Positions 9,545-29,963 of a DNA stretch of 32,000 nt are shown here, in pieces. Every line of letters starts with the position of its first letter. Within the stretch, counting starts at the first letter, position 1. This DNA is from Candidatus Electronema halotolerans (GTDB lineage: Bacteria > Desulfobacterota > Desulfobulbia > Desulfobulbales > Desulfobulbaceae): contig OW818675.1 of NCBI GenBank assembly GCA_942493095.1, positions 570,001 to 602,000 of the forward strand. Reading direction: 5' to 3'. A model generated the notes under the pieces. That model was not told the origin of the DNA, made no database searches, and worked only from the letters and a program-made list of their open reading frames with translations. The position numbers and the translations under genes were made by a program.

Positions 9545-10630
9545 TCAATCATACTTGCATCTCTTGTCTTTTACATTCTTTTTTGCCGACTTGATATATT
9601 TGCCAAAATCACGATCTTTCCTTCTCTTCTCAAGGTATGACATCTGCTGAAACGTGGACTCTGCGCGGAGTTTCAGATAATTTTCAAGGTGCTCCCGACC
9701 TATTTCGCCAGAATCTACAGCCGCAAGCACGGCGCAGCACGGCTCGCCCGCATGGCTGCAATCTCGATAACGGCAGCTTGAGGCAAGGGCAGCTATGTCG
9801 GCGTAATTGCTCTCCATGCCGTCTTCCGCGCCGAGGATGCCGAATTCACGCATTCCCGGATTATCAATCACCAGCGCACCGCTTTCGAGGCGAATCAGTT
9901 CCCGGCGAACGGTGGTATGCCGTCCTTCGCCTGTGCCGCTGACCGTCTGGGTTGTCTGCATTTCACGGCCAAGCAAGTGATTGACCAAGGTGCTTTTGCC
10001 AACCCCGGATGAGCCAACAAAGCAATAGGTTTTGCCGGGCAGCAAGAGCTGCTTGAGATCAGCCAAGCCCTCCTGCGTCACGTTGCTCAAGGCAGCTATT
10101 GGCGCGCTGATGCCAGCAGAACGGATTTCCTCTACTTGTGCTGCGAGAACAGCAGGCTCCACCAAGTCGGTCTTGGTGAGCAGGATGCAGGGTTCTGCCC
10201 CGCCATCCCTCACCATGACCAGATAGCGTTCCAGCCGCTTCAGATTGAAATCAAAATGGCAGGACTGAACGATAATCACGCAGTCCATGTTCGCCGCGAT
10301 CATCTGATATTCGACAACATTTCCTGCCGACTTCCTGCGCAGCGAAGTCCTCCGCTCAAGAATCGCGTGGACCATGCCAAAGTCGTCGCTCGGCTGTTTT
10401 TCGCAGCAGACCCAGTCGCCTACGCAGGGCAGCTTGTATGACAGGTGGTGGCGATGCAAATAGCTGCCGCTCACCTTTGCTCTGAACGGGCCGGTTTGAT
10501 TGACGAGCAGCAACTGCTCACGGTCAACGGCGGCAACACGGGCGATGCTGGCTGTTGAACTGCATTCTGCTCGTTGCGCGAACCAGTCGCTCCAGCCAAG
10601 TTCGGTTAAGCAAGTTAGGGGTGAGGGCAT
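9545..10630 (-). CDS. rsgA: ribosome small-subunit-dependent GTPase A
   Basis: Circularly permuted GTPase with NMDCVIIV...LTKTDL preceding the P-loop GSSGVGKSTLVN. The C-terminal zinc motif is CRYRDCSHAGEPCCAV. Confidence 0.9.
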   Translation of the reverse strand: MPSPLTCLTELGWSDWFAQRAECSSTASIARVAAVDREQLLLVNQTGPFRAKVSGSYLHRHHLSYKLPCVGDWVCCEKQPSDDFGMVHAILERRTSLRRKSAGNVVEYQMIAANMDCVIIVQSCHFDFNLKRLERYLVMVRDGGAEPCILLTKTDLVEPAVLAAQVEEIRSAGISAPIAALSNVTQEGLADLKQLLLPGKTYCFVGSSGVGKSTLVNHLLGREMQTTQTVSGTGEGRHTTVRRELIRLESGALVIDNPGMREFGILGAEDGMESNYADIAALASSCRYRDCSHAGEPCCAVLAAVDSGEIGREHLENYLKLRAESTFQQMSYLEKRRKDRDFGKYIKSAKKNVKDKRCKYD

Positions 10631-10635
10631 GGCGG

Positions 10636-11787
10636 TTAATCAAGGGCTACGGATTCATTCTCTTGTTGCTGTTCTTCGTCATCAACGTTAAACTCAACGC
10701 GACTCTGCAAGACGATTTCTTTAATTATTTCTTTGCTTCTTCCTTTTTTCAACGCGAGATCAAACCGGTTCATCAGTTCAGGAATATTGATCACTTCTTC
10801 AATAGAATCCATATATCGTTTAACAATAGCCTTGACCTTATATCGTGCGGCAGCTTGTTCTTGCACTTTTTTCAAAACTTCGGCAACCAGTTGTTCTGTT
10901 TTGACAACAAAGGTAATTGGATACCGTTGAACCTTGTCAATATCCAGAAAATACTTGCCAGCATCTATAGTTTCTGTCACTTGAAAGAACCTGCCAAGCG
11001 GTTTCATCACAAAATCAATGCCGCCATCATTCGCATTGGTTCGACCAGTCTTGTACAGGATAAGGTATTCGGAGTTCAGTTCATCAGGAGACCAACCCCA
11101 ATAAATTTGCTGATCAGCATAGAAATGTTTCAGGATGGCATAGCTGACAATTTCAAAGATTCTCGCATCAGCATTTGGCTGCAAGAGACTACGAATAAAT
11201 TCTATTGCTTGTTCAAAATTTTGTTCTTGAATAGCAATTATTTGCTGGCAGCACGACATGAACGCATCAAACGCATGTTTTCTTGCTTCGATATAAGCAT
11301 CTATGATTTCCTTTACTGCTAAAGCGATATTAACTTGTTTTTTGTTTATCGAAACTATGAGCAGATGCTCATTGATCCAATACCGATTAGTTTCGATATC
11401 GCGAATAATTGGAAGATGCGAGGATGTTGGAAAATATTTTTTGAATTCTTCGTTCAGGCGATGATTAAGCGCATGATTTTGCAGTTTACTTCCAAATGGC
11501 AATTTTCGCTGCCGTTGCAGCAAGATTATGTATTGAGCACCAATATATTCATCGTAATCATTTTTTTCATGAAATCCGTTGGCAATATAATCTTCAATCA
11601 GAACATACAGCGCATAATGATTAGCAAATCCAGCACGGGACTTTGAACCGCGATTTGCTGCTTTTGTCTTTATGTTTAAATATTGAAGCAGCTCACTGCG
11701 GGCTATAAGTTTCTCCGCATGACTGCCGAAATGAGATTTTAATATTGCAAGGATTTTATTTGTAAACTCGTGCCTCAATACTGGCAT
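10636..11787 (-). CDS. putative type II restriction endonuclease (Mrr-cat / PD-(D/E)xK-like core)
   Basis: 383 aa and AT-rich. It overlaps the 3' end of the adjacent methyltransferase by 32 nt. The motif NDGGIDFVMKPLGRFFQVTE resembles the DGGID...Q-x-K nuclease core of Mrr-type enzymes. Confidence 0.6.
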   Translation of the reverse strand: MPVLRHEFTNKILAILKSHFGSHAEKLIARSELLQYLNIKTKAANRGSKSRAGFANHYALYVLIEDYIANGFHEKNDYDEYIGAQYIILLQRQRKLPFGSKLQNHALNHRLNEEFKKYFPTSSHLPIIRDIETNRYWINEHLLIVSINKKQVNIALAVKEIIDAYIEARKHAFDAFMSCCQQIIAIQEQNFEQAIEFIRSLLQPNADARIFEIVSYAILKHFYADQQIYWGWSPDELNSEYLILYKTGRTNANDGGIDFVMKPLGRFFQVTETIDAGKYFLDIDKVQRYPITFVVKTEQLVAEVLKKVQEQAAARYKVKAIVKRYMDSIEEVINIPELMNRFDLALKKGRSKEIIKEIVLQSRVEFNVDDEEQQQENESVALD

Positions 11788-12658
11788 TGAACAAATCTCC
11801 GTTGTACATATTTGCTATATGTTTGCCGTTTCTATTTTTTCGAGTGCAGGACTTTTCCGGCGGCAGCAGTTCCTCTCCATTAAAACGTTGCATACAAAAA
11901 ACACGTCGCAAGCCAATTTTCAAATATTCTTCTTGTAATTCTACACTGATTGTTCTACGTTGCAGTTTTTTTGCAACAGCCGCTGTTGTAAATGTGCCTG
12001 CAAAAAGGTCTAAAACAACATCACCTTCACGGCTGCTGGCACGAATAATACGCTCCAATAAAGATTCAGGCTTTTGTGAAGGATGATTTTCATATTCATC
12101 CATCCGGTAACGCACCCTTGGAAAATACCAAACATTGCCGGGGATTTTTTCCGTGCTGTATGGTGCAGGTGTTGCCTTCCTGTAATCAATCAATTTTCGT
12201 TGCGCCCCAGTTTTCGCTTCAACTTTAATTTCATCAGCATTGAAGACATACTGCTGCGAATCTTTGACACAATGCAGTATTGGTTCATACATTGAGCCAT
12301 AGTATCTTTTAGCCTGCACGCCAGAGCTGTCATAGTGCCAGATGATTCGGCTGAGAACAGTCAGCTTTTTTTTCAAAAATATATCAAAGTACGGCATGGC
12401 TTGCGTGCTTGTCATAACATACAGAGTTCCTGTTGGTTTAAGCACTCTTATACATTCATCAAGCCATTGGTATGCCCACTCCGCATAAGCCTCATCAGAA
12501 GGCCATTTGTCATAAAAGCCAGCAAATTTTTTTCCAATATTGTAAGGAGGATCAAGGAAGATTAAATCAACAGACTCTGCTGGCAGCTCAGTTCGCAAGG
12601 TTTCAAGCGCATCACCCAAGTATATGCAGTGTCCATCCTGTTCAAATTTAGATGTCAT
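11756..12658 (-). CDS. beta-class DNA methyltransferase (N6-adenine or N4-cytosine)
   Basis: The catalytic motif IV, LDPPYNIG, precedes the AdoMet motif I, VVLDLFAGTFTTAAVA; HPSQKPESLLERII is also present. The ATG at 12658 is taken as the start; the ORF track begins at a TTG at 12661. Confidence 0.9.
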   Translation of the reverse strand: MTSKFEQDGHCIYLGDALETLRTELPAESVDLIFLDPPYNIGKKFAGFYDKWPSDEAYAEWAYQWLDECIRVLKPTGTLYVMTSTQAMPYFDIFLKKKLTVLSRIIWHYDSSGVQAKRYYGSMYEPILHCVKDSQQYVFNADEIKVEAKTGAQRKLIDYRKATPAPYSTEKIPGNVWYFPRVRYRMDEYENHPSQKPESLLERIIRASSREGDVVLDLFAGTFTTAAVAKKLQRRTISVELQEEYLKIGLRRVFCMQRFNGEELLPPEKSCTRKNRNGKHIANMYNGDLFNASIEARVYK

Positions 12659-12677
12659 CAAGGGTTACTCTTTAGAA

Positions 12678-12723
12678 GGTGTGAACGAGTTCGCTGGTTC
12701 ACACGCTCCAGCGTGTAAACCAG
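12678..12723. promoter_or_regulatory. two overlapping, mutually exclusive inverted repeats just upstream of the methyltransferase
   Basis: A 13-bp inverted repeat, ctggttcacacgc (12694-12706) pairing with gcgtgtaaaccag (12711-12723), has one mismatch. An 8-bp inverted repeat, gtgtgaac (12679-12686) pairing with gttcacac (12697-12704), shares the middle arm. Confidence 0.35.
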
Positions 12724-12737
12724 ACGAAACCATAGAA

Positions 12738-13607
12738 TTACTTGCATTTATAAAAGTTGCGAGCCTGATAAATGCAATGATCTATATGAGAATCTGAGAT
12801 GGATGCTCCTTCTGAATGTTCCAGCTTGACGCGATACCGAATATATACTTCCAAAGATAGAGAAAAAGGCATTTCACCTTCAGCAGCATTACAGCGATGC
12901 GCCTCAATAAGCTGGAGAATGCGCATTGGTGAAATATTTTCATTAAGACATCGCGCCCAAGACTCAACGATTGAAAATATCGTAGCTTCAGGAAGTCCCA
13001 TTATAACTACTATCGGCATTGAATCAATTACAGCAGGTGATACGTCAAACATCTCTGCAAAATTTGGATCATTAGCTAATCTTTTTTTAACCAATTCACG
13101 AATAAGGCTTTCTTTTGTTATTTTTTTCTTAAAAAGACCAAATAAAGAATTTGATAACCTCGAAAAAATACCATTTTTATTCGAGATTAAATCTTTTGTC
13201 ACATAAATATTTGCAGTTAAGTGCAATATTTTACGCATAACGGCCAGCGCGTTAGCTTCAAATACCTCTAACCTTGCATATTCATTTGATGAATCAAGAT
13301 TTACATGACCAGATTCATCAAATATGCAAAGAAACACATCATATCCTGCATCCTCTTCAAAATCATGACCGAGCTTATCGGCGGCAATTTCCATAAAAGC
13401 AGGGCTTAACATGCTTTGTTCTGCCGTAATATACATGATTGGCGAAGAATTATCTTTCTTCTGATATATTACTAACAGATAAAGATATTGTATTGGACCG
13501 AAACTTTCAGGGTCGCGCACTAAGACAGCCTGATATTCTCCACACTCATATGCTTTTAATGCTGTTCCTCCAGAGATTAACGGAGCGGTTTTTCCTGGTT
13601 CAAGCAT
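12738..13607 (-). CDS. hypothetical protein, 289 aa, no recognisable motif
   Basis: A clean ATG-initiated ORF in the AT-rich island, co-oriented with the R-M genes. The antisense ORFs are short. Confidence 0.6.
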   Translation of the reverse strand: MLEPGKTAPLISGGTALKAYECGEYQAVLVRDPESFGPIQYLYLLVIYQKKDNSSPIMYITAEQSMLSPAFMEIAADKLGHDFEEDAGYDVFLCIFDESGHVNLDSSNEYARLEVFEANALAVMRKILHLTANIYVTKDLISNKNGIFSRLSNSLFGLFKKKITKESLIRELVKKRLANDPNFAEMFDVSPAVIDSMPIVVIMGLPEATIFSIVESWARCLNENISPMRILQLIEAHRCNAAEGEMPFSLSLEVYIRYRVKLEHSEGASISDSHIDHCIYQARNFYKCK

Positions 13608-13691
13608 AATTCATCTCAGATGCTTTTATGAAAAGCAGTTCTGCTATGTCTGGTTCCAATGTTTGAGATTTAAACCAAAAAGCAAAGATTA

Positions 13692-13958
13692 TTACTTTTT
13701 GTTAATTTGATAGTTTTTCATGGAGGCAGCTCTTGCTTTCATTAACCCATCGCTTATATTTTTTCCCTCTATTTTATCCCTGGAGAGGAAAAACATTTTT
13801 AACGGAGGAATGAAAGAATTTGCAGGGTCTTTATATAGATCACTGATAACATCACAAATCTTTGTTCTGGTGTCTCGAACGAATAGTTTTTCTCTGAGAT
13901 TAGCAAGCTCCGGTGGCTCTGGTGTCGTTAGCCACTTTTCCTGAGCAACAGTTTGCAT
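13692..13958 (-). CDS. hypothetical small protein (about 88 aa)
   Basis: An ORF in the AT-rich island with an ATG at 13958; the track begins at a TTG at 13964. The frame stays open about 80 nt further upstream without a start codon, so it may be a remnant. Confidence 0.4.
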   Translation of the reverse strand: MQTVAQEKWLTTPEPPELANLREKLFVRDTRTKICDVISDLYKDPANSFIPPLKMFFLSRDKIEGKNISDGLMKARAASMKNYQINKK

Positions 13959-14124
13959 AGTCAATACATATGCTTCTGCAATTCCATCAGTAACACCATC
14001 TATATATACTTCTTGAACAAATCTGTTCCAAGACAGCCATAGATGAGCATATAGCGGTTACGGGTTGAACAGTTATCAAATTTCATTGCTTTGTTAAAAG
14101 TTTTGTATATATAAATTCAGTATG

Positions 14125-14256
14125 TTAGACGCATGGTGAAATGACAGGATGATCGCCATGAGACATATAACTGCTATAATTATATGGAGCTGCTGTAGCT
14201 GTAGAACTTAACGATACAAATAGAAAAACAACTACAAAAATTTTTCTACAGTTCAT
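14125..14256 (-). CDS. possible small secreted peptide (43 aa: MNCRKIFVVVFLFVSLSSTATAAPYNYSSYMSHGDHPVISPCV)
   Basis: It is not in the ORF track because it is under 60 aa. GGAGA lies 4 nt upstream of the ATG, and the ORF starts 11 nt after the stop of the 151-aa gene. It has a signal-peptide-like N-terminus with an A-x-A site. Confidence 0.25.
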   Translation of the reverse strand: MNCRKIFVVVFLFVSLSSTATAAPYNYSSYMSHGDHPVISPCV

Positions 14257-14267
14257 TTTTTCTCCTT

Positions 14268-14723
14268 TTATTTACCATTTTCACGTAACGCACGAACCAA
14301 CTCAGGGCTTATTTCCCTATTTGGCTCATTTCTTAAAATCAACACATTTATAATACTCATATACATATAAGCTCTATTATTCTCAGGCATTTTTTCCACT
14401 AAACTAATAGCGAGTTGCGTATCTTGCAATTTAACAAGCTTTTGGATGCAGACATCAACTTGACCAATGTTTTTATTATGAATATAGAAAAAGGCAGCGG
14501 CAATAAACTCTGATAGTGTGCCAGCAACAGCAATAACAGCAGATTCAGTGATACTATTTGGAGAGTTGAAGAAAACAAGAAATGCTAAAAGAATCACAAG
14601 GAATCCGATAGCTGCGGCAAAGATACTCATCCAAAAACTTACCTTGTGCTGAAATCTGGCTGACTCATAGAACTGACTAAGATTAACTATAAAATTTTCA
14701 TTCGAGTTAGATTCTACAGACAT
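14268..14723 (-). CDS. 2-TM membrane protein with a C-terminal helical tail; resembles 2-TM effector modules of conflict systems (SLATT / TRADD-N-associated membrane domain type)
   Basis: 151 aa. A polar N-terminus is followed by two adjacent TM helices, FWMSIFAAAIGFLVILLAFLVFF and AVIAVAGTLSEFIAAAFFYI, then a helical tail. The family resemblance is from memory only. Confidence 0.6.
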   Translation of the reverse strand: MSVESNSNENFIVNLSQFYESARFQHKVSFWMSIFAAAIGFLVILLAFLVFFNSPNSITESAVIAVAGTLSEFIAAAFFYIHNKNIGQVDVCIQKLVKLQDTQLAISLVEKMPENNRAYMYMSIINVLILRNEPNREISPELVRALRENGK

Positions 14724-14792
14724 TTTTTTATTTAAAAAAGAATTTATCGCTAAAGGGCGAACCTACCAAGTCCGCCCCTTGCTGCAATCCCC

Positions 14793-15467
14793 TTACGGCA
14801 ACTGCCCCATAATCTCCTCGTAAACCTCCTTAATCGTCTTGGAGCCATCAACAGAAATAATCTTGGCTTTGCTGTTCTGCTTGAAGTAATTCACCGCCGC
14901 CATCGTGCCGGTCTTGTCATCATAGTAGATGTCATGCCGCTTGCCGATGGCCGCCTCGTCCTGATCATCAGCGCGGGCACTCAACTCGCCGCCGCAGACC
15001 CGGCAAACCAACTTGCCGTCCTTCTCCACCGGCTTAATCGCCTCAAAAGCAATGTGGTTCGGATGGTTGTTGTCATTGGCGCACAGCCGACGGCCCATGA
15101 TCCGCTCTTTGGCAATCTGCCGGTCCAGCACAATCTCAACCACGCAATCCAAGGCCATGCCAGATTCGGTCAACGCCTTATCCAACGCCTTGGCCTGCTC
15201 CAAAGAGCGCGGGAAGCCGTCTAAGAGCCAGCCTTTGTCCTTGGACTTTGCCAAGGTTTCCAGCACCATCGGCACGGTGATTTCATCCGGCACGAGGTCG
15301 CCCTTGTCAATATAGGCCTTGGCCTTTTTGCCCAGCTCGGTGCCGCCTTTGATGTGCTCGCGGAAGATCGCGCCAGACTCAATGTGATCCATGCCATACT
15401 TCTCTTTGACGATTGCGCCTTGGGTACCTTTGCCGCTGCCGTTTGGTCCAAAGGTGAGGATGTTCAT
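14793..15467 (-). CDS. adk: adenylate kinase (long form with a Cys-containing lid)
   Basis: P-loop GPNGSGKGTQ, motif GFPRSLEQA, and a lid with CRVCGG. Confidence 0.95.
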   Translation of the reverse strand: MNILTFGPNGSGKGTQGAIVKEKYGMDHIESGAIFREHIKGGTELGKKAKAYIDKGDLVPDEITVPMVLETLAKSKDKGWLLDGFPRSLEQAKALDKALTESGMALDCVVEIVLDRQIAKERIMGRRLCANDNNHPNHIAFEAIKPVEKDGKLVCRVCGGELSARADDQDEAAIGKRHDIYYDDKTGTMAAVNYFKQNSKAKIISVDGSKTIKEVYEEIMGQLP

Positions 15468-26801: not shown

Positions 26802-27023
26802 TATTGCAATCTCTCCCATACATCTAAAACTGTTGGTTCTTTCTGTAAGAAAAAAAGCTGCCTCCCGTTTATGAGAGAGCTGCGGTTGATTTGCTGGCTT
26901 CAAGTATTATAGCAACCGGGGAGATTGAGGGCAACTGAGGGAGTGCGAAAGAGCGGAAGAAGAGGCTGTTGCGGCGAGTTTCAGCAACAAAAAAAGCTGA
27001 ACTTCCAGCAGCGGAGGCCCAGC

Positions 27024-28316
27024 TTACCGTGCCTTTATCTTCATGCTTCGCTCCATATAATTAAATGCCATCCAGAAATTTGCTTGTGTCCATAACAATG
27101 GAGTGGTATCACCAGGAATATACTGACCATGCTCCAAATAATAAAGTTCCGGGCATTTAAATCCTCCGAAGCGACTGTCTTCCGGCGTAAGCTGGCTTAA
27201 TGAGCGGTTGAAATAGTCTATTTGCAGTTGCAGGAAACGCTTGTCGTGTGTTTTCTGATAGTTCATCCCATAGATGATAGACATGACAGGATCAAAAATA
27301 CACCATTGCGCTTCTTGACCAGATTGCAATAAACTATCACGTTCAGCAATATTATCACTCACATCAATTGTTCTTTCCTCTTCTTTTACTTTCTCTTTGT
27401 AATCAGCAGACCAATAGGAATCGCCTAAATAGCGGCGGATACCATAGTCTCCTTGTAAATGCGTTCTGACATCATTGAGGATTTGATCGGCAATTTCTTC
27501 GCTGACGACATTCAGAGGGAATATCAGAAATAATAAAGCTGCGTCATAACGGCGGTACTTTTCAGGCTGGATACATTCGGCTGGCAAGATGGCATTTAAC
27601 GCTTCCTGGCCTTTGGCAATCAATCCAGTTACGAACTCGCTGGTAATAATTTTATCCTTACAATGAATAGAATATCTGTTTTCGCCGATTATTTTATTTA
27701 ATTCGATTAATGCGGCAACCACCACGCCAATACTGGATGCTTCAACTTTTCGCACTTCTTCCCAATGACCGCTGTCTTCATCTTGCCAGTAAGCGATTTT
27801 ATCGAAATACAAGGCAAACAAGGCGAGCAATTCTGTTTGCGCTGCGTTGAGTTCGGCAATGGCGTGTTCATTGTAGAGTTTGCAGAACAGCCAGAGAAAA
27901 TATCCAAGCGCGTCATTTTCAGCGTGCGCCCATTTTTGCTTGATTTCGGACAGATCATTGCCGTTGAAGCGAATATGAGGGCGATTCATCGGGTCGTTAA
28001 AATCTAACTCACCGGCAATAATTTTTTCAAATCGCCATTGGTGCTTGATGAAATAGTCAGTGAATGCGGTGATGTTTTTGATGGCGATGTCAGTTTTGCC
28101 ATTCAGATAATGGGCGTAGGCGATATGAATATTGTCACGTATCCAAACGTTATTATAGCCGGTATATTCAGATTCAGTTTGCAAATTGGCTGCTGGAAAG
28201 AGACCATTGTCTAACAATGGAAACAAAAAAGAATCTTTCCCGGTTAAGAGATCGAAAATATCCTTCAAGTTTGATGAAGAATATTCTCTTGCAACTATGC
28301 TGTAGTTGATCGACAT
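27024..28316 (-). CDS. glycoside hydrolase family 15-like (alpha/alpha)6-barrel protein, catalytic domain only
   Basis: About 430 aa and AT-rich. Motifs VWIRDN, HAENDALGYFLW, DEDSGHWEEV, GIRRYLGDSYW and PLLWTQANF are typical of the GH15 / phosphorylase-kinase alpha-beta domain. I see no signal peptide and no N-terminal beta-sandwich domain. The ATG at 28316 is preferred over the TTG at 28325. Confidence 0.8.
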   Translation of the reverse strand: MSINYSIVAREYSSSNLKDIFDLLTGKDSFLFPLLDNGLFPAANLQTESEYTGYNNVWIRDNIHIAYAHYLNGKTDIAIKNITAFTDYFIKHQWRFEKIIAGELDFNDPMNRPHIRFNGNDLSEIKQKWAHAENDALGYFLWLFCKLYNEHAIAELNAAQTELLALFALYFDKIAYWQDEDSGHWEEVRKVEASSIGVVVAALIELNKIIGENRYSIHCKDKIITSEFVTGLIAKGQEALNAILPAECIQPEKYRRYDAALLFLIFPLNVVSEEIADQILNDVRTHLQGDYGIRRYLGDSYWSADYKEKVKEEERTIDVSDNIAERDSLLQSGQEAQWCIFDPVMSIIYGMNYQKTHDKRFLQLQIDYFNRSLSQLTPEDSRFGGFKCPELYYLEHGQYIPGDTTPLLWTQANFWMAFNYMERSMKIKAR

Positions 28317-28894
28317 TGCGCACAACCTTTCTTTATCTTTCCAGAAGCATCAAAAAGAACATCTAAATGTTTTCTGTAAGAAAACTCAGCTAAATAGATA
28401 ACAATCAGTGAGATTATTCCAACCAATAAAAAAATAATTCCTTTCATTATGCTTGGGTTAGTTGCACGCAAAAAAGGAACTAAACTATAACCCATTAAGA
28501 TGATAGACATTGCCATGCTTGACCAGTACAAGACAAAATCTTCAAGATTAAACAAATATCTACCTCCACCATGCGAATTACTGCACAATTCACCAACATA
28601 TTTTTCATAGGGGTCGTTGCTGTAATTTAAAAAACATGCAACGACTAATATACGAATATTATTATGATAACAAAGCAAGTCAACGTAAGCGCAAACAAAA
28701 GGGATAATACAAAGAATATAGTCTGGCTCCATTGCCCATCCAGTAGTATTGCCATTAAAACCTAATCCAATTGCACCCAATGAAGCTATTGCTATTAGCT
28801 TATATTTCAAGAAATCCATTCTTGCTTTTTGAGACTCTACAATTTCTTCCCGCAAGGATGTAATCTCATCATTTATATTTATCTCTTGAGACAT
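28295..28894 (-). CDS. hypothetical 4-TM membrane protein with an N-terminal coiled-coil-like segment
   Basis: 199 aa and AT-rich. NDEITSLREEIVESQKARMDFLKYK is followed by four hydrophobic helices. The 3' end overlaps the GH15-like gene start by at least 22 nt. Confidence 0.6.
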   Translation of the reverse strand: MSQEININDEITSLREEIVESQKARMDFLKYKLIAIASLGAIGLGFNGNTTGWAMEPDYILCIIPFVCAYVDLLCYHNNIRILVVACFLNYSNDPYEKYVGELCSNSHGGGRYLFNLEDFVLYWSSMAMSIILMGYSLVPFLRATNPSIMKGIIFLLVGIISLIVIYLAEFSYRKHLDVLFDASGKIKKGCAQCRSTTA

Positions 28895-28936
28895 ATCTCT
28901 ACCTCATCCTTTTGCATGTCTTTTGTATTTCTTCAA

Positions 28937-29458
28937 TTAGTTAAGTTTCCCTTTCGCAATACTCTTTACAGCTTCCTTCATATCACTGGGTGTACCACGA
29001 AGAACATCACCAACTTTCCCGGTTAATTCACCCAATATCGCACTTGCTATCCCCATAGAATTATTTTTTAGTTCTTCATCGCTAACGGTACCATCTTTAT
29101 ACAATTCACATATTGATATTACTATTAATCCGCTTACGGTATGAAGAAGTACAGTTGCAGCGCAATTTGCAACTACCCCAATCCCAGGAATATATCCAAT
29201 AACTACATTGGCTATACTAGCTCCAGCCGCAGCACCAGGTATTACGCCAATAAATGTTGACATCCCGGAAAGTGACCTGTACCCATAAACATCAACTATC
29301 TCTTCACACATATTAATAGTAACACCTGTTAATAACGCTCCTGACAAAATAGGCCCTGCGAATGGTATTGCAGTAGTCAACGCCATTGGAACTGCAATTG
29401 CTATAGCATCTGTAACCTTGCCCCAAGCTGAGTCAAATGTCGACATGATCAACTCCAT
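28937..29458 (-). CDS. small Gly/Ala-rich membrane protein, DUF697-like by motif recollection
   Basis: AIPFAGPILSGALLTGVTINMCEEIVDVYG and YIPGIGVVANCAATVLLHTVSG resemble the two conserved blocks of DUF697 (YcjF-type) domains. The second Met (29446) has the better GGAG Shine-Dalgarno sequence. Confidence 0.55.
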   Translation of the reverse strand: MELIMSTFDSAWGKVTDAIAIAVPMALTTAIPFAGPILSGALLTGVTINMCEEIVDVYGYRSLSGMSTFIGVIPGAAAGASIANVVIGYIPGIGVVANCAATVLLHTVSGLIVISICELYKDGTVSDEELKNNSMGIASAILGELTGKVGDVLRGTPSDMKEAVKSIAKGKLN

Positions 29459-29510
29459 TCATCATATTGATTAAATAGAACAAACTTATAGATACAGATA
29501 CGCTAATAAT

Positions 29511-29963
29511 CTACTCACCACCCCCGCTCTCCTTCTTCTCCTTCTTATGCCCGGGCTTGAAGGCCCCCATGAAATCAAGAAGGAACTGCCCTTCCTCGGC
29601 AATCTCAGGATACGCCTCGGCAAAGTCGCGGATGCGGCGGGCCGTGTCGTACATGGCCTCGATGCACCTGTCGGTGGCCTGAAGCCGCTGATGATAGACG
29701 GACAGATGCAGCTTGTCCAGCAGATGCTCGGCAGGCTCAAGGCGGAGGACTTCAGCCAAGCCCTGCTCCAGTCCGGCGAGAACAGCGGCATCAAGCCTGA
29801 GCGTCTCTCCGTGCTTCTGGACAAAGCGGGCAGCATCGTCAGCCACGGCCTGATAGCCGGGCAGGGATTTGTGCAGGGACTGGATATCGTTCGCATCCAG
29901 TGGGGGCAGGATTTCCACGTTCAACAGCTCGGCGACCTTTTCGAGATCAGTCTTTTCCGGCAT
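29511..29963 (-). CDS. hypothetical protein, 150 aa, GC-rich and helical, with a Lys/Glu/Gly tail
   Basis: A strong AAGGAGG Shine-Dalgarno sequence lies upstream of the ATG at 29963. I recognise no family motif. Confidence 0.55.
   Translation of the reverse strand: MPEKTDLEKVAELLNVEILPPLDANDIQSLHKSLPGYQAVADDAARFVQKHGETLRLDAAVLAGLEQGLAEVLRLEPAEHLLDKLHLSVYHQRLQATDRCIEAMYDTARRIRDFAEAYPEIAEEGQFLLDFMGAFKPGHKKEKKESGGGE

What the first reader, a model, noticed from the sequence alone, without database searches (positions are those of the whole stretch)
12738..14723. Uncharacterised co-oriented gene set next to the R-M pair, headed by a 2-TM effector-like protein
Upstream of the methyltransferase, on the same strand and in the same AT-rich block, lie a 151-aa protein, a possible 43-aa signal-peptide ORF, an 88-aa protein and a 289-aa protein. 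None shows a motif I can name. The 151-aa protein has a short polar N-terminus, two back-to-back TM helices and a helical tail (FFYIHNKNIGQVDVCIQKLVKLQDTQLAISL...). That layout is typical of the small 2-TM effector modules (SLATT-like, TRADD-N-associated membrane domain) predicted to permeabilise membranes in abortive-infection-type systems. Being immediately beside an R-M system in a horizontally acquired block fits a defence-island context. The 289-aa and 88-aa proteins could be the sensor or regulator components of an undescribed module.
Basis: partly seen in the sequence, partly recalled or inferred. Interest (0 to 1): 0.7.

Follow-up and report, generated by a model that had tools for sequence, protein, structure and literature searches.

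The report
Mosaic accessory islet, not one system
The "gene set" beside the restriction-modification pair in this cable-bacterium genome is a patchwork of independently mobile accessory genes, including a small two-helix membrane protein that travels elsewhere as a single-gene integron cassette, and is not one multi-gene defence system.

Summary
The ORFs exist at the stated coordinates, in an AT-rich block (GC 0.36-0.42 against about 0.58) between adk and rsgA of Candidatus Electronema halotolerans.

- **151-aa protein.**
- **43-aa and 88/90-aa ORFs.** They are two halves of one 145-aa signal-peptide protein gene. Here it is split by a 124-bp element with inverted-repeat ends and a 3-bp duplication. 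The gene is intact in two related contigs.
- **289-aa protein.** It fuses two unrelated, unannotated domains, each of which occurs alone or in other fusions.
- **Co-occurrence fails.** Ca. E. aureum keeps the 289-aa gene beside adk without the 2-TM gene, the 145-aa gene or the R-M pair. Another lineage has 151+145 without 289. In at least five distinct loci the 2-TM gene is a single-gene integron cassette bounded by attC sites.
- **Selection.** All three genes are under purifying selection (dN/dS 0.18-0.30).

The best reading is a mosaic islet at an adk 3'-end hotspot. The 2-TM protein acts alone, possibly as a membrane-acting defence effector; that function is inferred, not shown. The three-gene module is not supported.

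The parts
14268..14723 (-). 151-aa inner-membrane protein. It has an N-terminal cytosolic helix, a two-TM hairpin (about residues 29-52 and 60-82) and a conserved 65-aa C-terminal helical tail. It is a member of Pfam PF20712.
   Evidence: PF20712 1.4e-16, 60.8 bits against a cut-off of 24.3, residues 24-86. There are 68 homologues of about 150 aa, all carrying PF20712. The family is conserved over its full length, with invariant H82-N83, K98/Q100-D101-T102 and R131-N132-E133. AF2 pLDDT is 82 and the model is all-helical. dN/dS is 0.20 against L060.
13692..14256 (-). Disrupted gene for a 145-aa Sec-signal-peptide protein. Its start codon lies 11 nt after the 151-aa stop codon and is preceded by AGGAG.
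   Evidence: P0075 (145 aa) is 99% identical over the 90-aa ORF and begins with the 27 residues of the 43-aa ORF. The gene is intact in L009 and L060. dN/dS is 0.18 between L009 and L060. It has no Pfam or NCBIfam hit.
14049..14178 (.). MITE-like insertion. A 124-bp element (14052-14175) is flanked by a 3-bp TAT duplication (14049-14051 and 14176-14178) and has 11-nt terminal inverted repeats. It shifts the reading frame of the 145-aa gene.
   Evidence: Pairwise alignment with L009 shows 100% identical flanks and a 127-bp gap. blastn break-points overlap by 3 nt. L060 lacks the insertion at the same break-points. The inverted repeats are 14050-14060 and 14168-14178, 91% complementary. No second copy was found in any sequence held.
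12738..13607 (-). 289-aa cytoplasmic protein made of two unrelated, unannotated domains. The N domain (residues 1 to about 148; nt 13164-13607) is alpha+beta. The C domain (residues about 153-289; nt 12741-13151) is all-helical and carries the motifs GLPEATI..IVE, IE.HR and Y..YR..LEH.
   Evidence: It has no hit in Pfam, NCBIfam, PADLOC or PHROGs. phmmer against 1.84 billion representatives gave 349 hits, but the only full-length hit among the 150 listed is the Ca. E. aureum orthologue; the other listed hits match one domain only. In the AF2 model the N domain has pLDDT above 90 and the C domain 60-80. Foldseek against PDB and BFVD, and profile searches against PDB, gave nothing significant. 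The two domains are unrelated to each other. dN/dS is 0.27 against Ca. E. aureum.
11756..12661 (-). YhdJ-like N6-adenine DNA methyltransferase of the adjacent type II R-M pair. It is a separate module.
   Evidence: PF01555 7.9e-58, NCBIfam PRK11524 3.6e-142 and PADLOC MTase_II 2e-133.
10636..11787 (-). Type II restriction endonuclease. It overlaps the methyltransferase gene by 32 nt.
   Evidence: PADLOC PDLC03455 5.3e-192. The same REase + yhdJ pairing occurs on a Leptospira noguchii plasmid at 55.7% identity.
14753..14835 (-). adk 3' end plus terminator hairpin. This is the left border of the islet and a candidate att-like recombination site.
   Evidence: About 80 nt are homologous to a sequence present twice in Ca. 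E. aureum (L001 8417-8502 and 9121-9197, 80% identical to each other), where it brackets a 107-aa/86-aa pair. A copy also lies upstream of the 151-aa gene in L060, which has no adk (alignment A7).

Best explanation
The segment is not one system. It is a roughly 4.1-kb AT-rich islet inserted downstream of adk in Ca. Electronema halotolerans. It is assembled from at least three independently mobile modules.

1. **Module 1: 151-aa and 145-aa genes.** A 151-aa PF20712 two-TM membrane protein is tightly followed by a gene for a secreted 145-aa protein. In this genome the 145-aa gene has been knocked out by a 124-bp element with inverted-repeat ends.
2. **Module 2: 289-aa gene.** This gene fuses two unannotated domains.
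3. **Module 3: type II R-M pair.**

**How the 2-TM protein is built (partly shown, partly inferred).** It is a self-contained unit. It forms a hairpin in the inner membrane. Its N terminus and its strongly conserved 65-aa C-terminal helical tail are inferred to lie in the cytoplasm, from the positive-inside rule.

**What it most likely does (inferred, not shown).** Its family circulates as single-gene integron cassettes and often sits next to restriction or toxin genes. The most likely role is therefore an autonomous membrane-acting effector, of the abortive-infection or phage-exclusion type, that oligomerises through its helices.

**The 289-aa protein.** It is a separate accessory protein, conserved in Electronema, whose two domains also occur in cassette arrays elsewhere. 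Its biochemical role remains unassigned. The best guess is a binding or neutralising (immunity-like) protein rather than a partner of the 2-TM protein.
For: **Modular structure (shown)**
- Only hom, adk and the 289-aa gene are syntenic with Ca. E. aureum. There the intervening genes are a 107-aa PBECR2-like gene, an 86-aa DUF2283 gene and a 236-aa unknown gene.
- L060 carries 151+145 and then DUF302, without the 289-aa gene. L030, from the same assembly, carries 236+289 as in Ca. E. aureum.
- L009 has the window's gene order with an intact 145-aa gene.
- No 289-aa or 145-aa homologue was found in the 29 loci held, which included 2-TM loci from other organisms.

**The 2-TM gene is autonomous and mobile (shown)**
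- A covariance model built from 16 attC sites of the array in L025, plus three shorter sites from L026, finds attC sites at or overlapping the stop codon of the 2-TM gene. This holds in L013, L014, L016, L017, L019-L024, L025 and L026-L029.
- A second attC lies just upstream in L014, L016 and L025.

**The genes are real (shown)**
- dN/dS is 0.20 for the 151-aa gene, 0.18 for the 145-aa gene and 0.27 for the 289-aa gene.
- The 57-member alignment of the 2-TM family has 23 invariant columns spread along the whole protein.

**Defence association (circumstantial)**
- The window has a type II R-M pair.
- A type IV mREase lies directly upstream in L058 and L059 (2.5e-95).
- L026 has an Mrr-like nuclease and SymE.
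- L014 has BrnT (2.2e-11) and an AbiGi-like protein.
- An N-domain homologue of the 289-aa protein sits in a true integron (integrase TIGR02249, 378.9 bits) next to a ThsB_TIR/ThsA_Macro cassette.
- In a functional screen, at least one third of integron cassettes of unknown function conferred phage resistance, and about a third of those contained TM helices (bioRxiv 10.1101/2024.07.02.601719).
Against: - No function has been tested for any PF20712 protein that I could find. No paper in the held library mentions the family.
- PADLOC has no model that matches the 151-aa, 145-aa or 289-aa proteins.
- Foldseek returns only generic helical hairpins for the 151-aa model (best E 0.2). A pore or oligomer is therefore inferred, not seen.
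- Integron arrays hold many non-defence genes, so the association is weak evidence.
- The window copy has no attC site.
- The 151-145 pair is conserved with the same 11-nt spacing in three Electronema-like contigs. Close relatives of the 2-TM protein are followed by another secreted (ClpP-like) protein. A two-gene function is therefore not excluded.
Confidence: 0.55

Rival explanations
1. The 2-TM protein is the effector of one undescribed abortive-infection module, and the 289-aa and 88-aa proteins are its sensor and regulator.
For: The genes are co-oriented, closely spaced and share AT-rich composition. The same order is present in L009.
Against: Ca. E. aureum has the 289-aa gene without the 151-aa or 145-aa genes. 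L060 has 151+145 without the 289-aa gene. The 2-TM gene is a lone cassette in at least five distinct loci. No homologue of the 289-aa or 145-aa proteins was found in the 29 loci held, which included 2-TM loci from other organisms. C-domain homologues share no conserved neighbour across 21 metagenomic loci. The "88-aa" gene is broken here while the 151-aa gene stays intact.
Confidence: 0.05
2. The functional unit is the two-gene pair: the 151-aa 2-TM protein plus the downstream secreted protein. The pair would form an envelope module, for example a membrane anchor or release factor and a periplasmic cargo, or a toxin and its immunity protein. The solo cassettes would be reduced versions.
For: There is an 11-nt spacing with an AGGAG between the 151-aa stop codon and the 145-aa start codon in the window. 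The stop-to-start spacing is also 11 nt in L009 and L060. The pair moves together, since L060 has it in a different flank. In the closest 2-TM relatives (P0002 82% identical, P0006 78%) the next gene again encodes a signal-peptide protein. That protein is ClpP-like, scoring 22.4 and 20.0 bits against PF00574, and the two copies are 39% identical to each other.
Against: The downstream partners are not homologous to one another: the 145-aa protein against the ClpP-like proteins gives only blastp E 0.77. 145-aa family members P0076 and P0077 occur without a 2-TM gene. The 2-TM gene is alone between attC sites in L014, L016 and L025. The natural knockout of the 145-aa gene in a closed genome shows the 151-aa gene is tolerated without it.
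Confidence: 0.2
3. The 2-TM protein is a cassette-borne membrane protein with a role outside defence, such as stress or envelope adaptation, regulation or transport. Its proximity to R-M and toxin genes would only reflect shared residence in variable regions.
For: Most integron cassettes are of unknown and diverse function. A 77% identical homologue (P0008) sits as a lone gene between a GntR regulator and rpsP-rimM-trmD-rplS, with no defence genes nearby. There is no PADLOC hit.
Against: The Pfam family was defined from conflict-system (TRADD-N) proteins. Restriction, toxin or Abi-like genes recur next to the gene in four independent contexts.
Confidence: 0.2

Closest known systems
Pfam PF20712 (CyanoTRADDas_TM), the 2-TM domain associated with bacterial TRADD-N conflict-system proteins. 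The TRADD-N systems are described in Kaur et al. eLife 2020 and 2021 (PMC7159879, PMC8195603).
   Same: The hairpin of the 151-aa protein (residues 24-86) matches the model well above the gathering score. All 68 homologues carry the same domain. One source names a homologue a 'TRADD-N-associated membrane domain-containing protein' (P0035).
   Different: No TRADD-N domain is fused to it or encoded in the islet. The protein is a stand-alone unit of about 150 aa. It has a family-specific, highly conserved C-terminal tail (KL.KLQDT..., YMYM.IINVLILRNEP) that no Pfam model covers. Its homologues are mostly in Beta- and Gammaproteobacteria integron arrays rather than cyanobacteria.
SLATT 2-TM effector domains, predicted pore-forming effectors of nucleotide-signalling conflict systems (as summarised in PMC7159879).
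   Same: The overall layout is the same: an N-terminal helix, a two-TM hairpin and a cytosolic helical tail. There are weak sub-threshold hits to NCBIfam SLATT_fungal (E 0.05) and SLATT_1 (E 0.23).
   Different: The scores are far below the cut-offs (13.5 against 35; 11.4 against 41). There is no SMODS, SLOG, CD-NTase or other nucleotide-signal generator nearby. Membership is not established.
Integron gene cassettes that encode small phage-defence systems (BRiCs; bioRxiv 10.1101/2024.07.02.601719).
   Same: Homologues of the 151-aa protein are single-gene cassettes bounded by attC sites. Many BRiCs are small proteins with TM helices. BRiC homologues also occur outside integrons without attC sites, as is the case here.
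   Different: The window copy has no attC site and lies in no integron. No member of this family has been tested for defence, as far as the held library shows.
MITEs (miniature inverted-repeat transposable elements), as a comparison for the insertion in the 145-aa gene.
   Same: It is a short (124-bp) non-coding element with 11-nt terminal inverted repeats and a 3-bp TAT (or 2-bp TA) target duplication. Related strains have an empty site.
   Different: Only one copy has been seen. Multi-copy status and a parent transposase could not be checked because the rest of the genome was not available.

Membership tests
Pfam PF20712 CyanoTRADDas_TM | Sequence score above the curated gathering threshold | tested here: met
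   60.8 bits against a cut-off of 24.3, E 1.4e-16, residues 24-86 on model positions 4-65 of 68.
Pfam PF20712 CyanoTRADDas_TM | Two adjacent transmembrane helices forming a hairpin | tested here: met
   Kyte-Doolittle 19-residue windows exceed 1.6 around residues 35-50 and 70-72. The AF2 model shows long helices 4-53 and 58-110 joined by a 4-residue turn.
Bacterial TRADD-N conflict system | A TRADD-N domain fused to the TM domain or encoded next to it | tested here: not met
   None of the six islet proteins hits a TRADD-N model. No neighbour with a precomputed or tested Pfam hit in homologue loci carries one. The rest of the genome was not searched.
SLATT effector | Match to SLATT profile models above cut-off | tested here: not met
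   NF033635 scores 13.5 bits (cut-off 35) and NF033634 scores 11.4 bits (cut-off 41).
SLATT effector | Association with a nucleotide-signal generator (SMODS, CD-NTase, SLOG, TIR or similar) | tested here: not met
   The islet contains no such gene. PADLOC recognises only the R-M pair.
Integron gene cassette | An attC recombination site immediately 3' of the gene | tested here: not met
   Window: no hit at E <= 1 with filters on. With filters off the best hit is 6.6 bits, E 1.4, and lies inside a coding region. Homologues do meet the criterion: attC hits of 40.7-56 bits lie at the stop codon in L013, L014, L017, L019-L024 and L026, 22.5-23.6 bits in L016 and L027-L029, and 132.8 bits in L025.
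Integron gene cassette | An integron integrase (IntI) next to the array | tested here: not met
   The window islet is flanked by adk and rsgA. An IntI (TIGR02249, 378.9 bits) was confirmed only in L051, which carries an N-domain homologue of the 289-aa protein.
Known anti-phage defence systems (PADLOC-DB 2.0) | A profile match of the component proteins | tested here: not met
   The 151-aa protein, the 90-aa and 43-aa fragments and the 289-aa protein have no match at E <= 1. Only REase_II and MTase_II match.
Conserved multi-gene operon (any new system) | Co-occurrence of the component genes in unrelated genomes | tested here: not met
   289 occurs without 151 and 145 in Ca. E. aureum. 151+145 occur without 289 in L060. 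The 151-aa homologue is alone in cassettes. C-domain homologues have no shared neighbour in 21 loci.
MITE (for the insertion at 14049-14178) | Terminal inverted repeats, a target-site duplication and an empty site in relatives | tested here: met
   The inverted repeats are 11 nt and 91% complementary. The blastn break-points overlap by 3 nt. L009 and L060 have empty sites.
MITE (for the insertion at 14049-14178) | Multiple copies in the genome and a related autonomous transposon | not testable with these tools
   There is no other copy in the window or in the 59 loci held when it was searched. The rest of the Ca. E. halotolerans genome could not be scanned.
Type II restriction-modification system (neighbour) | Adjacent REase and cognate-type MTase genes | tested here: met
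   PDLC03455 5.3e-192 and PDLC03299 2e-133. The genes overlap by 32 nt. The same pairing occurs on a Leptospira plasmid.

The most novel reading that the evidence does not exclude
The stand-alone PF20712 protein (2-TM hairpin plus the conserved KLQDT/RNEP tail) would be a complete single-gene anti-phage system. It would be a minimal membrane-disrupting abortive-infection effector that senses infection through its cytosolic tail. It would spread between Proteobacteria and Desulfobulbales as an integron cassette and would have been captured at an adk 3'-end hotspot in multicellular cable bacteria. The two unannotated domains of the 289-aa protein would be further cassette-borne conflict (immunity or anti-defence) domains.
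Probability: 0.2. Interest if true: 0.6.

Novelty: new member of a known kind. Interest (0 to 1): 0.33.

Why it matters
- **Annotation.** It corrects what looked like a candidate new multi-gene defence system into what the data support: a patchwork islet.
- **A testable candidate.** The analysis isolates a compact 151-aa membrane protein of a family defined only by computation. That family recurs as a single-gene integron cassette next to restriction and toxin genes. It is therefore cheap to clone and challenge with phage.
- **Two unannotated domain families.** The N and C domains of the 289-aa protein gave 349 hits among 1.84 billion representatives, and neither domain is in Pfam.
- **Genome plasticity in cable bacteria.** The work documents a small transposable element and an adk 3'-end insertion hotspot in these organisms, whose genome plasticity is little studied.
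- **Limit.** None of this changes a major open question.

Tried and rejected
1. **Structure searches.** Foldseek of the 289-aa model against PDB (best E 0.2) and BFVD (best hit an uncharacterised Tupanvirus protein, E 4e-3, TM 0.26/0.42) gave no functional lead. Foldseek of the 151-aa model against PDB returned only generic coiled-coil or hairpin hits at E 0.2 or worse.
2. **Profile searches against PDB sequences.** Searches with the 2-TM family, the N domain and the C domain found nothing below E 0.09.
3. **Internal duplication in the 289-aa protein.** hhalign of the N domain against the C domain gave probability 0.8%, so this idea was rejected.
4. **Phage and plasmid records.** tblastn of the 289-aa protein against phage and plasmid records found no match. 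The 151-aa protein gave only two weak partial Rhizobium plasmid hits.
5. **Fusion partners.** A Pfam scan of 138 domain homologues found only sporadic partners: Sel1/TPR, DUF4328, DUF2569 and a dienelactone hydrolase. No theme emerged.
6. **RNA families.** An Rfam scan of 10-16 kb found nothing real.
7. **Promoters and terminators.** Counts equal those in shuffled sequence, so they say nothing about operon structure.
8. **The islet as a degenerate integron.** No attC site was found in the window, even with filters off. The model is, however, trained on one attC class.
9. **Pseudogene debris.** This was rejected for the 151-aa and 289-aa genes (dN/dS 0.20 and 0.27, intact ORFs). It is accepted only for the split 145-aa gene in this genome.
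10. **Further copies of the 124-bp element.** None was found in the window or in any locus held.
Full report
**Organism and setting.** The 289-aa protein is 100% identical to GCAAIG_02700 of Candidatus Electronema halotolerans and 88% identical to a protein of Ca. E. aureum. The window therefore comes from a cable bacterium. The region 10636-14790 is AT-rich, with GC 0.36-0.42 against 0.55-0.62 in the flanks. It lies between rsgA (9545-10630; RsgA_GTPase 8.6e-47) and adk (14793-15467). All its genes are on the minus strand.

**Check of the observation.** The adjacent genes are a YhdJ-like N6-adenine methyltransferase and a type II endonuclease. The same pairing occurs on a Leptospira plasmid. 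The description of the 151-aa protein holds. Hydropathy shows two hydrophobic segments. An AF2 model with pLDDT 82 is a long helical hairpin followed by two shorter helices. Two corrections are needed, and the next two paragraphs give them.

**The 151-aa protein has a nameable domain.** It matches Pfam PF20712, the TRADD-N-associated 2-TM domain, at 60.8 bits against a cut-off of 24.3. SLATT models score far below their cut-offs, and PADLOC has no match. All 68 homologues found are about 150 aa long and carry PF20712. The 57-member alignment is conserved end to end. This includes a C-terminal tail that no Pfam model covers, with invariant H82-N83, K98/Q100-D101-T102 and R131-N132-E133. No paper in the held library mentions the family. 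The TRADD-N papers describe the systems but not this stand-alone form.

**The 43-aa and 88/90-aa ORFs are one broken gene.** Homologues of the 90-aa ORF are 145-149 aa long. P0075 begins with the signal peptide encoded by the 43-aa ORF. Contig L009 is 99.6-99.8% identical to the window over 4.3 kb. It carries the same gene order (adk, 151, 145, 289, MTase, REase) with an intact 145-aa gene. The only structural difference is a 127-bp insertion in the window. The blastn break-points overlap by 3 nt, giving a TAT duplication around a 124-bp element at 14052-14175. The element ends in 11-nt inverted repeats. A third contig, L060 (92.6% nt identity), also lacks the insertion. This is the signature of a small non-autonomous transposable element. 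I found no second copy in the sequences held, so multi-copy status is untested.

**The 289-aa protein is a fusion of two domains.** It has no hit in Pfam, NCBIfam, PADLOC or PHROGs. An exhaustive phmmer search gave 349 hits. Among the 150 listed, only the Ca. E. aureum orthologue is full-length. The other listed hits match either residues 1 to about 148 or residues about 153-289. These domains occur as proteins of about 135 aa or fused to other, mostly unannotated, regions.
- The N domain models confidently (pLDDT above 90) as an alpha+beta fold. The C domain is helical, with pLDDT 60-80.
- Conserved motifs are FVTAE and GH.NLG in the N domain. In the C domain they are GLPEATI..IVE, IE.HR and Y..YR..LEH.
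- Foldseek and profile searches found no solved or viral relative. The two domains are unrelated to each other.

**Co-occurrence test.**
- **Ca. E. aureum.** Only hom, adk and the 289-aa gene are shared with the window. Between adk and the 289-aa gene lie a 107-aa PBECR2-like protein, an 86-aa DUF2283 protein and a 236-aa unknown protein. Downstream come DUF2442, DUF302 and yajC. There is no 2-TM gene, no 145-aa gene and no R-M pair.
- **L060.** The 151-145 pair has the same 11-nt spacing and is followed directly by DUF302, without the 289-aa gene. L030, from the same assembly, has the 236-289 arrangement.
- **Other organisms.** A 77% identical 2-TM homologue is a lone gene beside rpsP. A 63% identical 145-aa homologue is a lone gene after purA. 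tblastn finds no 289-aa or 145-aa homologue in the 29 loci held at that point, which included 2-TM loci from other organisms. Across 21 metagenomic loci, C-domain homologues share no conserved neighbour.
- **Conclusion.** The set therefore breaks into separate modules: 151+145, 289, and the R-M pair.

**The 2-TM gene is a single-gene integron cassette elsewhere.** Locus L025 is an array of 16 attC sites (GCCTAAC ... GTTAGGC) spaced about 410-590 bp apart. The 2-TM gene lies between two of them. I built a covariance model from these sites and three shorter sites from L026.
- It finds attC sites at or overlapping the 2-TM stop codon in the following loci: Acidovorax delafieldii (L013), A. facilis (L017), the GCA_003634645.1 group (L019-L024), Luteimonas sp. 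R10 (L014), Zoogloea (L016), and L026-L029.
- A second site lies just upstream in L014, L016 and L025.
- The window, Ca. E. aureum, L004 and L060's relatives show none.
- An N-domain homologue of the 289-aa protein lies in a true integron. Its integrase scores 378.9 bits against TIGR02249, and it has five attC hits. It sits beside a ThsB_TIR/ThsA_Macro cassette. Some C-domain loci also have attC hits.
- The unknown genes of this islet therefore belong to families that circulate independently in the cassette pool.

**The genes are real.** dN/dS is 0.20 for the 151-aa gene (window against L060) and 0.18 for the 145-aa gene (L009 against L060). It is 0.27 for the 289-aa gene (window against Ca. 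E. aureum), with similar values in both domains.

**Context and mechanism.** Genes next to 2-TM homologues include the following:
- a type IV methyl-directed restriction enzyme directly upstream (L058 and L059; 2.5e-95);
- an Mrr-like nuclease and SymE (L026);
- BrnT (2.2e-11) and an AbiGi-like protein (L014);
- an HNH protein (L025).

A functional screen reported that at least a third of integron cassettes of unknown function confer phage resistance. About a third of those had TM helices, and their homologues also occur outside integrons without attC sites. On this basis I infer, but have not shown, that the 151-aa protein acts alone as a membrane-acting defence effector. The positive-inside rule places both termini in the cytoplasm, which is also an inference.

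A weaker alternative is a two-gene unit made of the 2-TM protein and a downstream secreted protein. The 151-145 pair is conserved in three Electronema-like contigs. The closest 2-TM relatives are followed by a secreted ClpP-like protein. Against this, the partners are not homologous to each other, the solo cassettes exist, and the 145-aa gene is naturally knocked out here.

**Islet borders.** About 80 nt comprising the adk 3' end and its terminator occur twice in Ca. E. aureum, bracketing the 107/86-aa pair. A copy also precedes the 151-aa gene in L060, where adk is absent. This suggests a site-specific insertion hotspot at the adk 3' end. Synonymous divergence of the 289-aa gene between the two Electronema species (dS 0.23) is half that of adk (0.49). 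This is compatible with later exchange or with compositional constraint.

**Verdict.** The domain call and the defence-island flavour are supported. The multi-gene module is not. What remains of interest is a compact, untested PF20712 cassette protein and two unannotated domain families.

Noticed in passing
window 14049-14178: A 124-bp element with 11-nt terminal inverted repeats and a 3-bp TAT duplication splits the 145-aa gene. Contigs L009 and L060 have the empty site. Only one copy was seen in the sequences held.
   Followed up: partly
window 14753-14835; L001 8417-8502 and 9121-9197; L060 331-413: The adk 3' end plus its terminator hairpin (about 80 nt) is duplicated in Ca. E. aureum around a PBECR2-like/DUF2283 gene pair. 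A copy also travels with the 151-145 pair in L060, where no adk is adjacent. It looks like an att-type insertion hotspot.
   Followed up: partly
L025 1-7098: This metagenomic contig is an integron cassette array with 16 attC sites (GCCTAAC...GTTAGGC). It carries small ORFs with no Pfam hit, apart from an HNH protein and a faint Ank-repeat hit, and one cassette is the 2-TM gene.
   Followed up: yes
L051 2621-8980: This is a complete integron. Its integron integrase scores 378.9 bits against TIGR02249. Its cassettes include a Thoeris-like ThsB_TIR + ThsA_Macro pair and a two-gene cassette (72 aa + 174 aa) whose larger protein is a homologue of the 289-aa N domain with a C-terminal TM segment.
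   Followed up: partly
L053-L057 (about 1250-2710) and L058/L059: The closest relatives of the 151-aa protein (78-82% identical) are followed by a signal-peptide protein with a marginal ClpP-fold match (PF00574, 22.4 and 20.0 bits). In L058 and L059 a type IV methyl-directed restriction enzyme lies directly upstream.
   Followed up: partly
window 12738-13607 against L001 10001-10870: Synonymous divergence of the 289-aa gene between the two Electronema species (dS 0.23) is about half that of the neighbouring adk (dS 0.49). This hints at later horizontal exchange or at composition-constrained codons.
   Followed up: no
window about 27000-29500: This is a second AT-rich block (GC 0.35-0.43) on the minus strand. 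It holds a weak GH15-like 433-aa ORF and two ORFs (199 and 173 aa) with no Pfam hit; a further no-hit 150-aa ORF lies just beyond it at 29511-29963. It may be another acquired islet.
   Followed up: no
L001 8545-9113: At the same adk hotspot, Ca. E. aureum carries a 107-aa protein with a sub-threshold PBECR2 (barnase/EndoU/RelE-like nuclease) match. It overlaps an 86-aa DUF2283 gene. The pair is probably a toxin-antitoxin module.
   Followed up: no
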